Below, piece by piece: positions 6,098 to 19,768 of a DNA stretch of 42,980 bases. Where the stretch lies: IMG/VR virus record IMGVR_UViG_2778261642_000006. One strand, given 5' to 3'. Under the pieces are notes generated by a model that was not told the DNA's origin, did no database searches, and saw nothing but the letters and a program-made list of their open reading frames with translations. Position numbers and translations under genes: made by a program. The number at the start of each line of letters is the position of its first letter. Within the stretch, counting starts at the first letter, position 1. This DNA is from a virus. Lineage: Duplodnaviria > Heunggongvirae > Uroviricota > Caudoviricetes.

Positions 6098-6604
6098 TTA
6101 AATAGCGTGAATAGCGTGACGAGGGAAGGGGAGAGTTACTGGTGCAAAGGGTATATCGTCGTCAAAATCCATCGGAGGTTCGTTGTGTTGTGCTGGTGAT
6201 GATTGCTGCTGTGGCTTCTGTGATTGCCTGCTGGCTGCTTGTTGTTTGCTGTCGCCAATGCCGCCAAGCATTTGCATCACGCCATTAATTCCGACATGAA
6301 CCTCGGTTGTGTAACGGTCTTGCCCTGACTGGTCTTTCCACTTTCTGGTTCTCAGCATTCCCTCGAAATAAATCTGATCACCTTTTTTCACATACTGCCC
6401 CACGACCTCAGCCAGTTTCCCGGATACAGCAACACGATGCCATTCAGTCAATTCCTTTTGCTCGCCAGTATTTTTATCTCGCCATTGTTCTGATGTGGCT
6501 ATTGTCAGGTTAGCGAACGCTGTTCCTGATGGTGAGTATCGAACTTCCGGGTCTTGTCCTACCCGACCAAGGATTATCACCTTATTTATCCCGCGAGAAC
6601 TCAT
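6098..6604 (-). CDS. ssb: Single-stranded DNA-binding protein
   Basis: [44 protein letters not shown]… OB-fold; Gln/Pro-rich tail ending DDDIPF; RBS GAGGTGGAG. Confidence 0.9.
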
Positions 6605-7068
6605 TTGCTCCACCTCTTGCCAGTTTTTATGTTGCTTATAATTGATTGAGATACACCCATGTCTTTTGCTATCTTGTACTGACTCTCTTTTTCAGAGAGT
6701 CTTTTCCTAATTTCTATAACCTGCCACTCTGTTAATTTTGCACCATGATGAGCATGACCTTTCTTGGCTCCACGATGCCTTCCTTTTGCTATCTTGTCGT
6801 CCATGTTTTCTTGCGCGCTACCTAAAAAGAGATGTTCAGGATTAACGCAGCATGGGTTATCGCATTTGTGGCAAACCATCTTCCCAGATGGAATGGGGGA
6901 GTGATAAAGCTCAAAAGCAACCCGATGAGAAAGCATTGTTACGCCAAAGGCTACAAATTTTGTGTATCCTCCTTTGTTTTTTGAATAGGTAGACTCCCAG
7001 CAACCTGTTGTTTCATTAACTTTGTAGCTGGACTCGAATCTTTTAATAATTCCGTCCAAGTGAGACAT
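6601..7068 (-). CDS. HNH endonuclease
   Basis: 155 aa; Cys/His-rich HNH-like core (…[26 protein letters not shown]…); sits between recombinase and ssb. Confidence 0.75.
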
Positions 7069-7776
7069 TTATGCCGCCTGTTTTAGTTCGTTAACTCTGA
7101 TGTTCATTACCTGAACGCATTTAGCCTGCGCCTCCTCGTTGCCAGCCATTAATTGCCAGTCACGCTGATAACGCTCGATGAGTTTTTTCTTGTCAGTTTC
7201 TGTTGACGCATAATCGCTGAAGTCTTTCAGGATTTGCTCGCAGTCAACCGATGGAGATTTCTGGTTGGTATTTTCTGGTGATGGTTTGTTATCTGATGCT
7301 GGCATTGCCCATCCCGGCAGCGATGGAGGGGACCAGTAAAATCCTGTTCCATCTTTCAGTTTTGCCCTGTGCCATCCCTGCTTTTTATCGAGAGATGTTT
7401 GTGCGAAACCTTCCTCAAGGTTATACAGATACCGACCGATTCCCCACTGAACGGCAGCACGCTTCATTGCACCGGAACGACCACCTTTGACGGCTTCTAC
7501 CTGCGTGTTTTCAGCAGCATCCCATTTGGTTACCCATTCGGAATCAATCTTGATTGATATGCCGCATTCAACTCCGCCGTTGTTGGGAATATCGCGGTAT
7601 TCATTGCGCCATCCTGCTTTGCCGCAAACATCGTCCAGGCGTTTCATGATTGCCCTGTTCGTGACATAAGCCAGCACCATAGCCCACACTTTTCCATCGC
7701 GTGTTTTACCGCTTTGCTGTATTCGCCATTCGATATCTTCAGGGCTGAATGGCTCGTCGAATTTATTCAAATTCAT
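7069..7776 (-). CDS. Rad52/Rad22-family single-strand annealing recombinase (Sak-like)
   Basis: 235 aa; …KRAAVQWGIGRYLY… motif typical of phage Rad52-like annealing proteins; occupies the bet position. Confidence 0.75.
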   Translation of the reverse strand: MNLNKFDEPFSPEDIEWRIQQSGKTRDGKVWAMVLAYVTNRAIMKRLDDVCGKAGWRNEYRDIPNNGGVECGISIKIDSEWVTKWDAAENTQVEAVKGGRSGAMKRAAVQWGIGRYLYNLEEGFAQTSLDKKQGWHRAKLKDGTGFYWSPPSLPGWAMPASDNKPSPENTNQKSPSVDCEQILKDFSDYASTETDKKKLIERYQRDWQLMAGNEEAQAKCVQVMNIRVNELKQAA

Positions 7777-8415: not shown

Positions 8416-8997
<582 letters not shown>

Positions 8998-9085
8998 GTG
9001 ATATAGATTTACCTTTAATTTTCTGGCGTCCTCTGCATGTTATGCCGCGTTCGCCAGGCTTGCGGTAGTAAATTCGGTTATTTAT

Positions 9086-9111
9086 GTAATAAAAACCCGC
9101 CTTAGCGGGTT
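9086..9111 (-). terminator. Intrinsic terminator after the first pL gene (tL1-like), possibly bidirectional
   Basis: AACCCGC-ctta-GCGGGTT hairpin; minus strand continues TTTTTATTAC; plus strand continues with a weaker T-rich tract. Confidence 0.65.
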
Positions 9112-9112
9112 A

Positions 9113-9556
9113 TTATTTCTTTGGATTTAGCTTTTCCATGTTCTCTGCGATCGTACCTATTCTTGACCTTATTGTTGGAACATCAATTCCTCTCTGTATG
9201 TCTACATTTAAAGACATAAGCTCTCTGCTCCATCCTGCGATCGCATCGTGAAATTGTCTTGCCCTGCTTGCTTGTCTACGTCTGCTGCTTTCAAGCTCTG
9301 TAAGCATTTGCTTTGCTTCGATCTGAGACTTGCCTTGCCCAACTCCCAATGCATCGATTGCACATTGCTTCATCTCTGCTTTTATCAAAGGGTGAAGATT
9401 TTCAGCGCCAATAAAAATTACCTCGTCTATGCTTTTAAAAAGCAGAAGGCAATCAGTAACAACTTTGGTTCTTTTATCATCACACCTTACCTCTACCGAA
9501 GGTACGCCGCCATATTGCTTAACTCTCATTGCCGTGTAAACTGTAGCACTCTTCAA
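9113..9556 (-). CDS. Hypothetical protein at the N/Nun position (not N-like)
   Basis: 147-aa ORF starting at TTG with AGGAGG RBS 5 nt upstream (or ATG 9 codons in); first gene after the pL leader; no arginine-rich N-terminal motif. Confidence 0.55.
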   Translation of the reverse strand: MKSATVYTAMRVKQYGGVPSVEVRCDDKRTKVVTDCLLLFKSIDEVIFIGAENLHPLIKAEMKQCAIDALGVGQGKSQIEAKQMLTELESSRRRQASRARQFHDAIAGWSRELMSLNVDIQRGIDVPTIRSRIGTIAENMEKLNPKK

Positions 9557-9644
9557 ATCAGCCTCCTTTTTCTTTTTCTATATCAAAAAGCTGCTTTGCT
9601 TTTTGTGACTAAAAGCAAAAAAGCCTTCTCGCTAATGAGCAGCA

Positions 9645-9706
9645 TTGCCGTTCATCCTGAACCCGCCGCGCTCCCGACGCATGGTTTAAAGACGCGCCGT
9701 TCGTCT
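9645..9706 (-). promoter_or_regulatory. Conserved leader element L (candidate nutL/put-like antitermination site)
   Basis: Minus-strand GAACGGCGCG…GCGTCGGGAGCGCGGCGGGTTCAGGATGAACGGCAATG aligns with the element after cro; followed by a stem-loop before the first pL gene. Confidence 0.45.
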
Positions 9707-9720
9707 ATGGGTTTATGATG

Positions 9721-9808
9721 TACTTAAAGTTCATTAATGTAAAGTACCAATAGTACATTTTATGGATATAAAAAGCTCACTACATCATAAGTTAGTGAAC
9801 TTTAAGGA
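9721..9808. promoter_or_regulatory. Putative OL operators / pL promoter region
   Basis: Partial copies of the OR half-site (…TTAAAGTTCA…, …ATAAGTTAGTGAACTTTAAG…) between cI and the pL leader. Confidence 0.35.
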
Positions 9809-9817
9809 AATTTATTT

Positions 9818-10525
9818 TTATCCGAATCGCTTGTAATCGATTGACTGCCTAATGAGGACTTTGGCTAGAATGTGAAGTTGCTCTTCTTCACCTTCTTCTA
9901 TGTACCATCGATCATAAGCGGCATTGTCAGAGATGACGGCAAGCCTGTTCTTTTGCATTTGCAGGCGCTTAACGTGCATTGTTTTCCCGTATACAAACAC
10001 ATAAATGCCATCGCCATCAAAACAGGTTATGGATACATCAACAAAGATCTCATCTCCCGGATTGATGGTTCCCTCCATGCTGTCACCGCGAACCGTGATG
10101 ACTTTTACGCTTTCCTGTGGCCTTCCATTAAATAAAATTCTTGCCTGCTCGGTCGTATATTCAATTGCTCTTATCTTTTCTATAAATTCATTGGAAACCA
10201 TGGTTCCTGGCCCGGCGCTCGCCTGAACATCCAATACATCAACACGATAATAATCATTTGATCTTGATAGATGATTTACCGTGATACCGTCATCATCAGC
10301 ATAGCCATGCAGATATGCAGCAGTAGTTCCCAGCACCGAAGCCAGAGATTCCATCTTGTCTTTTCTTGGTATTGACTCCCCGTTGAACCATTTACTAATG
10401 GCTTTTGGTGTGACCTTAAGCCTGACAGCTAAATCAGCCTGCCTACCATGCAAAGGTAATCCCGCTTTATCACAGGCCAGCGCAAGCCTCTGCGAGAAAG
10501 TTTCACGCTCTTTCTGTTGAACCAT
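9818..10525 (-). CDS. cI: CI-type repressor (HTH_XRE + S24/LexA-like peptidase domain)
   Basis: HTH region (…QADLAVRLKVTPKAISKWFNGESIPRKDKMESLASVLG…) and C-terminal S24 motifs (GDSMEGT…HVKRL); divergent from cro across operators; start ambiguous (in-frame ATGs near 10525, 10570, 10582). Confidence 0.8.
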   Translation of the reverse strand: MVQQKERETFSQRLALACDKAGLPLHGRQADLAVRLKVTPKAISKWFNGESIPRKDKMESLASVLGTTAAYLHGYADDDGITVNHLSRSNDYYRVDVLDVQASAGPGTMVSNEFIEKIRAIEYTTEQARILFNGRPQESVKVITVRGDSMEGTINPGDEIFVDVSITCFDGDGIYVFVYGKTMHVKRLQMQKNRLAVISDNAAYDRWYIEEGEEEQLHILAKVLIRQSIDYKRFG

Positions 10526-10835: not shown

Positions 10836-10856
10836 TAAAAATGTACTTTTAGTACC

Positions 10857-10912
10857 GAACGGCCCGGTATACGGTCGGGTGCCCGGCGTGGTCAAGGATG
10901 ACTGTCAATGGT
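10857..10912 (+). promoter_or_regulatory. Conserved leader element R (candidate nutR/put-like site)
   Basis: GAACGGCCCGGTATACGGTCGGGTGCCCGGCGTGGTCAAGGATGACTGTCAATG; ~75% identical in blocks to element L. Confidence 0.45.
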
Positions 10913-10956
10913 GCACGATAAAAACCCAAATTATTTACCTATGGAGATAGTAAGAA

Positions 10957-19612: not shown

Positions 19613-19687
19613 GGGTCAGTCGTATAAAGGTCATTACGGAAGGCTGTTAACCTTCTTATCGTGGTTCGAGTCCACGCTGTCCCGCCA
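19613..19687 (+). tRNA. tRNA-like gene, anticodon GUU (Asn) by manual folding
   Basis: Acceptor GGGTCAG/CTGTCCC (1 mismatch), weak D-stem, anticodon arm GAAGG-CTGTTAA-CCTTC, T-arm CGTGG-TTCGAGT-CCACG, discriminator G, CCA. Confidence 0.5.
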
Positions 19688-19692
19688 AATAT

Positions 19693-19768
19693 GCTGGTTT
19701 AGCTCCAATGGTAGAGCAGTCGCCTTGTAAGCGAATGGGTAGCGGTTCAAGTCCGTTAACCAGCACCA
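19693..19768 (+). tRNA. tRNA, anticodon UGU (Thr) by manual folding
   Basis: 76 nt; acceptor GCTGGTT/AACCAGC, D-arm GCTC…GAGC, anticodon loop CTTGTAA, T-loop TTCAAGT, discriminator A, CCA. Confidence 0.6.

What the first reader, a model, noticed from the sequence alone, without database searches (positions are those of the whole stretch)
9113..9556. Unknown 147-aa protein occupies the N/Nun slot as first gene of the pL operon
It has a strong AGGAGG RBS (TTG start) and is followed immediately by an intrinsic terminator, yet lacks any arginine-rich antiterminator motif. The first pL-transcribed gene is expressed very early and, in HK022, is an exclusion factor (Nun). This is a candidate novel early regulator or superinfection-exclusion/defence protein.
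Basis: inference. Interest (0 to 1): 0.6.

Follow-up and report, generated by a model that had tools for sequence, protein, structure and literature searches.

The report
Uncharacterised early phage gene after putL
This is a real, conserved but functionally unknown 147-aa phage protein that is made at the very start of leftward early transcription in a prophage that uses HK022-type RNA (put) antitermination; it neither replaces nor resembles N or Nun, and in relatives it always sits just after the antitermination element and just before the first terminator.

Summary
ORF 9113-9556(-), with an AGGAGG RBS, a TTG start and an intrinsic terminator 1 nt after the stop, is the first gene after pL.

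The immunity region is about 99% HK022 (cI/OL/pL/putL; putR region 100%). N is therefore absent because antitermination is RNA-based. Only a 30-codon N remnant survives, at 8993-9082.

The protein belongs to a small Enterobacterales phage family (PHROG 13686, unknown function). It is under strong purifying selection and is present in 21 of 5426 complete E. coli genomes.

I examined 39 loci. The gene directly follows putL in 20 of them, one of which also carries a nun homologue between putL and the gene. It directly follows a genuine N gene in 19. So it has its own slot, last gene before tL1, and is not an N/Nun substitute. A terminator hairpin follows it in 25 of 27 distinct downstream sequences.

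My best reading is an accessory immediate-early lytic protein, possibly nucleic-acid-binding. Its mechanism is unproven. Interest is moderate.

The parts
9113..9556 (-). orf147 coding sequence (147 aa, TTG start): PHROG 13686 family, function unknown
   Evidence: annotated as hypothetical protein WP_021556103.1 in E. coli YP3, which matches this stretch of the window at 100%
9562..9567 (-). Shine-Dalgarno AGGAGG, 5 nt before the TTG start
   Evidence: read directly from the sequence; the same RBS and TTG are present in all E. coli copies
9086..9111 (-). Intrinsic terminator (tL1-equivalent): 7-bp stem with 5 G-C pairs, 4-nt loop and a T-run. The A-tract on the other side makes it look bidirectional, so it may also terminate the convergent ORF at 8494-8997(+).
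   Evidence: the equivalent hairpin follows nun in HK022; a hairpin is present in 25 of 27 distinct downstream sequences of homologues
9585..9625 (-). A/U-rich hairpin followed by U5, between putL and the RBS. It is identical in HK022 and its role is unknown.
9636..9705 (-). putL, the HK022-type antiterminator RNA
   Evidence: the surrounding 325 nt are 99.4% identical to HK022, O276 and HK75 records in which putL is annotated; alignment; blastn
9715..9743 (-). pL promoter (-35 TTTACA, -10 CATCAT), overlapping the OL operators
   Evidence: matches the pL annotation of HK022 X16093 and of HK75
9818..10525 (-). HK022-type cI repressor
8993..9082 (-). Remnant of the 3' end of a lambda-type N gene (residues 104-133 of lambda N), lying downstream of the terminator. 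It is a recombination scar and not a functional gene.
   Evidence: tblastn 80% identity, E=1e-11; PGAP annotates it as an N pseudogene in strain YP3
10836..10956 (+). cro-cII intergenic region containing putR, 100% identical to HK022

Best explanation
orf147 is an accessory immediate-early gene of the leftward early operon.

Shown:
- It is transcribed from pL directly behind the antitermination determinant. Here that is HK022-type putL RNA. In relatives it is an N gene, or putL plus nun.
- It ends at the first leftward terminator (tL1-equivalent). It is therefore made in the first minutes of infection or induction, whether or not terminators are yet being read through.
- It encodes a soluble, basic (pI about 9.5) two-domain protein under strong purifying selection. 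The N-terminal part is a 4-stranded beta-sheet plus helix. The C-terminal part is a long helical hairpin whose central helix, ELESSRxRQASRARQF...AGWS, is almost invariant from Erwinia phages to E. coli phages.
- It is not an antiterminator of the N family and it is not Nun.

Inferred:
- It has no promoter of its own, so it is probably silent in the repressed prophage and acts during lytic development.
- Its rarity and mosaic distribution make it dispensable, meaning an accessory gene.
- The combination of strong sequence conservation, basic charge, an Arg-rich helix, a weakly SpoVG-like domain and a predominantly weak TTG/GVG start suggests a low-abundance factor. Such a factor would bind nucleic acid, most likely RNA of the early transcripts, or a conserved core host component of transcription or RNA metabolism. 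A rapidly evolving defence system is a less likely target.

The mechanism I commit to is a nucleic-acid-binding or transcription-associated early modulator. I put that specific step at only about 0.3.
For: Anatomy.

HK022-type pL/putL/putR, and no intact N or Nun in the window.

Family and selection:
- PHROG 13686, E=4e-92.
- 15 clusters at 90% identity among 5.8 billion proteins.
- Only 4 clusters at 50% identity in an exhaustive HMM search of 1.84 billion proteins.
- dN/dS 0.02-0.16.

Context in 39 loci:
- 20 carry putL upstream and 19 carry N upstream. Four representative N genes pass the Pfam N_peptide/N36 cut-offs.
- L028 has putL, then a Nun homologue (58% identity), then the gene.
- Gaps to the upstream N or nun are mostly 2-21 nt.
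- 25 of 27 distinct downstream sequences have a terminator hairpin 0-40 nt after the stop. Stems differ in several lineages, e.g. GGTCGC/GCGGCC and CCCCG/CGGGG.
- In Salmonella phage MG40 a terminator separates the repressor-side genes from the pL-N-orf147 unit.

Charge: pI 9.4-9.7 for the whole protein and about 10.4 for the C-terminal half, in all members.

Rarity: 21 of 5426 complete E. coli genomes, all copies at least 98.7% identical.
Against: - No experimental or homology-based functional evidence exists.
- The SpoVG resemblance is not supported by sequence. Pfam finds no SpoVG match in any member, and hhalign gives probability 0.3%.
- Basic charge and Arg-rich helices are also common in pure protein-protein coiled coils.
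- Linkage to antitermination modules could be purely positional, a convenient recombination-bounded slot.
- The absence of a dedicated promoter rests on a crude consensus scan that also fails to find the published PNun promoter in HK022. Low-level prophage expression is therefore not excluded.
- The same slot holds Nun, an exclusion factor, in HK022 and HK75, which argues by location for a phage-competition role.
Confidence: 0.45

Rival explanations
1. Counter-defence or host-takeover inhibitor. In this reading the protein is an immediate-early stoichiometric binder that neutralises a host defence or a host enzyme (restriction, RecBCD-like nuclease, protease, abortive-infection sensor) before the rest of the phage programme starts. 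Known analogues in early operons are Ocr, Ral, Gam and Abc.
For: - It has the earliest possible expression position, before tL1.
- It is sporadic and accessory: 21 of 5426 E. coli genomes.
- It shares the pL operon with anti-RecBCD and recombination genes.
Against: - There is no similarity to any known anti-defence protein.
- The predominant TTG/GTG start codon argues for low abundance, which is unusual for a stoichiometric inhibitor.
- Very strong conservation of one helix across genera fits a conserved core target better than a variable defence system.
Confidence: 0.22
2. Superinfection-exclusion or defence protein acting against other phages. It would be a functional analogue of Nun in the same genomic slot, expressed at a low level in lysogens or early after induction.
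For: - It replaces nun exactly between putL and the shared terminator, relative to HK022.
- The slot is variable among put phages: nun in HK022 and HK75, PHROG 5305 in APC_JM3.2, orf147 here.
- The unit is terminator-bounded, like a moron.
- The Arg-rich helix could bind RNA.
Against: - There is no PADLOC hit.
- No promoter is evident, and there is little room for one. Only about 20 nt of leader are specific to this cassette.
- In 19 loci it lies 2-84 nt behind N inside the repressed pL operon.
- It co-occurs with a Nun homologue in L028, so it is not simply an alternative to Nun.
- It has no transmembrane segment, so it is not a SieB- or Imm-type membrane excluder (sequence).
Confidence: 0.18
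3. A novel protein antiterminator that substitutes for N at nut-like or put sites.
For: It is the first pL gene in this window. It has an internal Arg-rich helix.
Against: - putL and putR are intact and essentially identical to those of HK022, where RNA alone suffices (PMC9378689).
- In 19 loci the gene coexists with a bona fide N.
- There is no homology to N or Nun.
- It is absent from HK022 and HK75, which antiterminate normally.
Confidence: 0.03

Closest known systems
HK022 Nun (transcription-arrest exclusion factor)
   Same: Same physical position in an HK022-immunity phage: directly after pL and putL, and before the same AACCCGC..GCGGGTT terminator. Both are small, basic, non-essential accessory proteins that contain an Arg-rich helix.
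   Different: - There is no sequence relation.
- The Arg-rich segment is internal (residues 87-102), not N-terminal.
- There is no C-terminal KKW RNAP-blocking tail.
- The roughly 170-nt nun-specific leader, where PNun should lie (placement inferred), is absent.
- It coexists with a Nun homologue in L028.
Lambda N family (Pfam PF25694 N_peptide / PF11438 N36)
   Same: It is an immediate-early pL gene located before tL1. It is physically adjacent to N in 19 related loci.
   Different: It gives no Pfam hit and hhalign probability is 0.1%. It has a structured two-domain fold, whereas N is disordered. It is not needed for antitermination in put phages.
PHROG 13686 (phage protein family of unknown function)
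   Same: Full-length match, 147 of 147 profile positions, E=4e-92. Members include Erwinia phage phiEt88 gp46, Salmonella phage MG40 gp42 and a Flyfo siphovirus Tbat2_3 protein.
   Different: None. This is the family. It has no assigned function and no literature.
SpoVG (PF04026; bacterial DNA/RNA-binding regulator)
Lambdoid 'morons' (Hendrix/Juhala definition)
   Same: A single accessory gene inserted between conserved neighbours, followed by its own terminator and with a mosaic distribution.
   Different: No promoter of its own was detected. It appears to depend on pL, so it would not be expressed from the repressed prophage as classical morons are.

Membership tests
Lambda N antiterminator family | Match to Pfam N_peptide (PF25694) or N36 (PF11438), or profile similarity to N proteins | tested here: not met
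   Pfam scan at E<=1 gave no hit. hhalign of the family profile against an N/Nun alignment gave probability 0.1%. Neighbouring true N genes do pass the Pfam cut-offs.
Lambda N antiterminator family | N-terminal arginine-rich motif that binds boxB of nut sites | tested here: not met
   The N-terminus is a predicted beta-strand. The only Arg-rich segment is internal, at residues 87-102. The window has put sites, not nut sites. RNA binding itself cannot be tested with these tools.
HK022 Nun | Sequence similarity to Nun, including the ARM and the C-terminal ..KKW tail | tested here: not met
   tblastn of Nun against the window found nothing at this locus. The C-terminus is ...EKLNPKK with no terminal Trp. 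A real Nun homologue sits upstream of the family member in L028.
PHROG 13686 | Full-length HMM match | tested here: met
   E=4.1e-92, residues 1-147 against profile positions 1-147.
SpoVG (PF04026) | Pfam HMM or profile-profile match | tested here: not met
   No SpoVG hit in any of 16 members at E<=10. hhalign probability 0.3%.
SpoVG (PF04026) | SpoVG fold (beta-sheet plus C-terminal helix) | tested here: inconclusive
Known anti-phage defence proteins (PADLOC-DB) | HMM match to a defence-system component | tested here: not met
   0 families at E<=1.
Moron (autonomously expressed prophage accessory gene) | Own promoter upstream and own terminator downstream | tested here: inconclusive
   The terminator is present. 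No sigma-70-like promoter was found between putL and the RBS, and only about 20 nt of cassette-specific leader exist. However, the scan is crude and also misses the published PNun in HK022.
HK022-type put RNA antitermination (the system surrounding the gene) | putL just downstream of pL, and putR between cro and cII | tested here: met
   The 325-nt stretch spanning cI 3' end, OL, pL and putL is 99.4% identical to HK022, where putL is annotated in related records. The putR region is 100% identical to HK022 over 121 nt. Activity itself is not testable here.

The most novel reading that the evidence does not exclude
The family is a previously unrecognised third kind of immediate-early lambdoid function. 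It would be an RNA-binding, transcription-elongation-associated factor, with a SpoVG-like domain plus an Arg-rich helix. It would act on RNA polymerase complexes or early transcripts just after they have been modified by N or by put RNA. Possible roles are tuning read-through at tL1, protecting early RNA, or arresting a competitor's transcription in a Nun-like but non-homologous way. This would explain why the gene is always placed between an antitermination determinant of any type (N, put, put+nun) and the first terminator.
Probability: 0.13. Interest if true: 0.75.

Novelty: new member of a known kind. Interest (0 to 1): 0.38.

Why it matters
In the lambda paradigm, only N and cro are immediate-early genes. 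This family adds a conserved extra gene to the N-independent part of the pL transcript in about 40 Enterobacterales phages. It keeps that position whether antitermination is protein-based (N) or RNA-based (put).

The slot is the one that holds Nun in HK022. It is therefore a plausible place for functions in phage-phage competition or early transcription control.

The protein has no detectable relatives of known function or fold, so any activity found would be new. It is small, soluble and easy to test in E. coli K-12 with standard lambdoid genetics.

If it turns out to be an ordinary accessory binder, the value is limited to annotating PHROG 13686.

Tried and rejected
Searches that gave nothing for orf147:
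- Pfam, NCBIfam and PADLOC scans. The only weak signals were DUF5760 at E=0.01 in 7 of 16 members and TIGR03623 at E=0.04, both treated as noise.
- A profile search of PDB sequences. The best hit was the hnRNP D0 RRM at E=1.2, rejected as not significant and of different topology.
- Foldseek against BFVD, which gave nothing at E<0.001.
- The afdb50 library was not available.
- A literature search by accession numbers and PHROG id returned 0 papers.
- King et al. 2000 on the nun promoters could not be read. It is cited only through the reference list of PMC5386594 and from my own recollection of its abstract.

The SpoVG lead:
- A homologue search with a SpoVG query returned only near-identical staphylococcal sequences, so no diverse profile could be built. 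That was a wasted search.
- hhalign against two SpoVG sequences was not significant.

The N-ARM fusion protein P0018 and the short variant P0017:
- I considered them as evidence of a functional N link.
- I rejected this because their loci are decayed prophage regions with several N 3'-end remnants and internal deletions.
- They still show the N, then gene, then terminator order.

Other points rejected or set aside:
- The overlapping + strand ORF 9248..9718 is the antisense of a conserved gene and was dismissed.
- The promoter scan is too crude to settle prophage expression.

Full report
**1. What is in the sequence**

The ORF at 9113..9556 on the minus strand encodes 147 aa from a TTG start. 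An AGGAGG Shine-Dalgarno lies at 9562-9567, 5 nt before the TTG. One nucleotide after the stop codon there is a 7-bp hairpin with 5 G-C pairs and a 4-nt loop, followed by a T-run (9086-9111).

**2. The surrounding system is HK022-type, which explains the missing N**

Window 9576-9900 is 99.4% identical to HK022, O276 and HK75 records in which cI, OL, pL and putL are annotated. A pairwise alignment with HK022 shows three things:
- Identity runs from cI through pL and putL to about 20 nt before the orf147 RBS.
- The two phages are then unrelated, nun in one and orf147 in the other.
- Identity returns at the terminator hairpin (AACCCGCTnAGGCGGGTTT).

The cro-cII interval that contains putR is 100% identical to HK022.

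tblastn with lambda-type and P22-type N proteins and with Nun finds no intact gene in the 43-kb window. It finds only a fragment equal to residues 104-133 of lambda N at 9082-8993, downstream of the terminator. PGAP annotates that fragment as an N pseudogene in E. coli YP3, whose chromosome matches this stretch of the window at 100%.

HK022 put RNAs make RNA polymerase terminator-resistant without any phage protein (PMC9378689). So the first pL gene here is not filling in for N. The N function is supplied in cis by RNA.

**3. The gene is real and belongs to a small, tightly conserved family**

- It matches PHROG 13686 (unknown function) end to end, E=4e-92.
- A word-indexed search of 5.8 billion proteins found 15 clusters, from Escherichia, Salmonella, Cronobacter and Enterobacter genomes, a bat-faeces siphovirus and unnamed metagenome contigs.
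- An exhaustive HMM search of 1.84 billion representatives found only 4 clusters at the 50% level.
- Phage records with the gene are Wanchaivirus PDP110P2 (99%), Salmonella phages MG40 and S.Inf 5-2 (80%), Flyfo siphovirus Tbat2_3 (75%) and Erwinia phage phiEt88 (63%).
- Where synonymous divergence could be estimated, dN/dS is 0.02-0.16. In most pairs synonymous sites are saturated while 60-80% of residues are kept.
- The gene is rare. It occurs in 21 of 5426 complete E. coli genomes, all at 98.7% identity or more.
- Residues 1-9 (MKS...YTA) are conserved and the SD precedes the TTG, so the TTG start is preferred over the internal ATG at codon 10 that some databases use.

**4. Genomic context across 39 loci is the most informative result**

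I oriented the window, five annotated records and 33 IMG/VR or genome loci on the gene. I then examined what lies upstream and downstream.

- In 20 loci an HK022-like putL (93-100% identity) lies upstream. This includes Erwinia phage phiEt88, whose protein is only 63% identical.
- In 19 loci the gene is preceded, at 2-84 nt, by a gene with an obvious N-type arginine-rich N-terminus. Four representatives pass the Pfam N_peptide/N36 gathering cut-offs.
- In one putL locus (L028) a 111-aa protein lies between putL and the gene. It is 58% identical to HK022 Nun (E=9e-46) and has the C-terminal KKW.
- In 25 of 27 distinct downstream sequences a terminator hairpin starts 0-40 nt after the stop. Stem sequences differ in some lineages.
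- Even the two decayed variants found by the exhaustive search (P0017, P0018) lie behind N remnants and before the same hairpin.

The family therefore has its own fixed slot. It is the last gene before the first leftward terminator, directly behind whatever antitermination determinant the phage uses. It co-occurs with N and with Nun, so it is not their substitute.

In put phages that lack it, the slot holds nun (HK022, HK75) or another unknown gene, PHROG 5305 in APC_JM3.2.

**5. Expression logic (inferred)**

Only about 20 nt of cassette-specific leader precede the RBS in the window. In most N or nun loci the gap is 2-21 nt. In MG40 a terminator separates the repressor-side genes from pL-N-orf147. 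The consensus scan finds only pL and pRM on this strand.

In HK022, nun is preceded by about 170 nt that are absent here and in L028. From my recollection of King et al. 2000 (J Bacteriol 182:456), which I could not read here, nun is transcribed in lysogens from its own promoter just upstream of the coding sequence. That would place the promoter in this segment.

I therefore infer that orf147 is pL-driven. It would be repressed in the lysogen and made at once on infection or induction, and in N phages before N has acted.

The inference is not secure. The scan also fails to see PNun in HK022.

**6. The protein**

- AlphaFold2 with the family alignment gives pLDDT 85.4. Strands are at 5-15, 18-27, 32-40 and 46-49. 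Helices are at 56-72, 76-121 (long) and 126-143.
- The N-terminal 75 residues modelled alone give pLDDT 87.6.
- All members are basic, with pI 9.4-9.7 overall and about 10.4 for the C-terminal half.
- The most conserved stretch is E87-N117 of the long helix, including R92, R94, R98, Q101, F102, G108 and W109.
- There is no hydrophobic segment long enough to span a membrane (sequence).
- By eye the strand order and an invariant His-Pro before the helix resemble SpoVG's '..AHPIN..' motif. Pfam and hhalign give no support. This remains a lead only.
- There is no relation to N or Nun, PADLOC, NCBIfam or PDB sequences.

**7. How it most likely works**

Shown: it is an accessory, strongly constrained, soluble basic protein. 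It is encoded in the immediate-early, pre-terminator part of the pL transcript.

Inferred: it acts early in lytic growth. Several features point to a low-copy factor that binds nucleic acid or a conserved core host component of transcription or RNA metabolism:
- extreme conservation of one helix across host genera;
- basic charge;
- frequent TTG or GTG start codons;
- fixed placement next to antitermination modules of three kinds.

I give this specific mechanism about 0.3.

The rivals are:
- a counter-defence or host-takeover inhibitor, about 0.22;
- a Nun-like exclusion function, about 0.18, supported mainly by sharing Nun's slot;
- a new antiterminator, about 0.03, nearly excluded because put sites are intact and the gene coexists with N.

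**8. Novelty and score**

The family is already catalogued (PHROG 13686; 'hypothetical protein' in RefSeq) and no function or paper exists for it.

What is new here is the context rule: always between N, put or nun and tL1. Also new is the recognition that this window is an HK022-immunity, put-dependent phage in which nun has been exchanged for this gene.

That makes it a new member of the known class of lambdoid early accessory genes, not a new kind of system. Interest is moderate at 0.38. It is a cheap and well-defined experimental target, and there is a small chance (about 0.13) that it is a new type of early transcription or RNA factor.

Noticed in passing
window 8993-9082 (-): A 30-codon remnant of the 3' end of a lambda-type N gene lies just downstream of the orf147 terminator (80% aa identity to lambda N residues 104-133). 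It marks the recombination joint where an HK022-type immunity/putL/orf147 module replaced a nutL-N module.
   Followed up: yes
window 8494-8997 (+): A 167-aa ORF convergent with the pL operon, belonging to PHROG 1244 (unknown function, E=5e-53). It has a coiled-coil region and a C-terminal CxxC...CxxC zinc-ribbon-like motif, and a weak PADLOC PDC-M53B hit (E=0.012). It ends facing the same, apparently bidirectional, terminator as orf147. The same sequence lies next to N in phages HK446 and ev099, where a hypothetical protein is annotated. Its opposite orientation inside the early left operon suggests an independently expressed, possibly prophage-expressed, accessory gene.
   Followed up: partly
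window 9585-9625 (-): An 18-bp A/U-rich hairpin followed by U5 lies between putL and the orf147 RBS. It is identical in HK022 and HK75. It looks like a weak intrinsic terminator or pause element immediately after putL, and I could not assign it a role.
   Followed up: partly
L045 1195-1491 (protein P0018) and L043 3225-3545 (P0017): P0018 is a 98-aa protein that fuses an N-type arginine-rich N-terminus (Pfam N36) to residues about 49-107 of this family. P0017 is a 106-aa truncated family variant. Both lie in decayed prophage regions with N 3'-end remnants upstream and the usual terminator downstream. They are probably deletion products and not a functional fusion.
   Followed up: partly
L028 3644-3979 (IMGVR_UViG_3300011739_000034): A Nun homologue, 58% identical to HK022 Nun with a conserved ARM and a C-terminal KKW. 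It sits only about 170 nt after putL and lacks the long nun leader of HK022. It is followed directly by the orf147 homologue and then the terminator.
   Followed up: partly
L008 1706-1930 (Escherichia phage APC_JM3.2): In this put-containing phage the slot after putL holds a different 74-aa protein (PHROG 5305, unknown function). This shows that the position behind putL is a variable accessory-gene site.
   Followed up: partly
L040 4001-4270 (IMGVR_UViG_2534682078_000036): One otherwise 99%-identical copy of the gene is interrupted, with a premature stop after 89 codons. The gene can therefore be lost without loss of the prophage.
   Followed up: no
window 19613-19765 (+): Two adjacent tRNA genes (Rfam tRNA, 55 and 61 bits) lie in the late or Q-proximal part of the prophage.
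   Followed up: no
window 6601-7068 (-): An HNH endonuclease gene is inserted between the Erf/Rad52-like recombinase (7069-7776) and ssb (6098-6613) in the pL operon. An HNH endonuclease gene also follows the orf147 homologue in Salmonella phage MG40.
   Followed up: no
P0002 (Cronobacter, 177 aa) and phiEt88 gp46 (L004 3971-4444): Database start codons for some family members are set too far upstream, so the annotated proteins run into the putL-proximal leader. Other members (P0008-P0010, 138 aa) are annotated from the internal Met10.
   Followed up: yes
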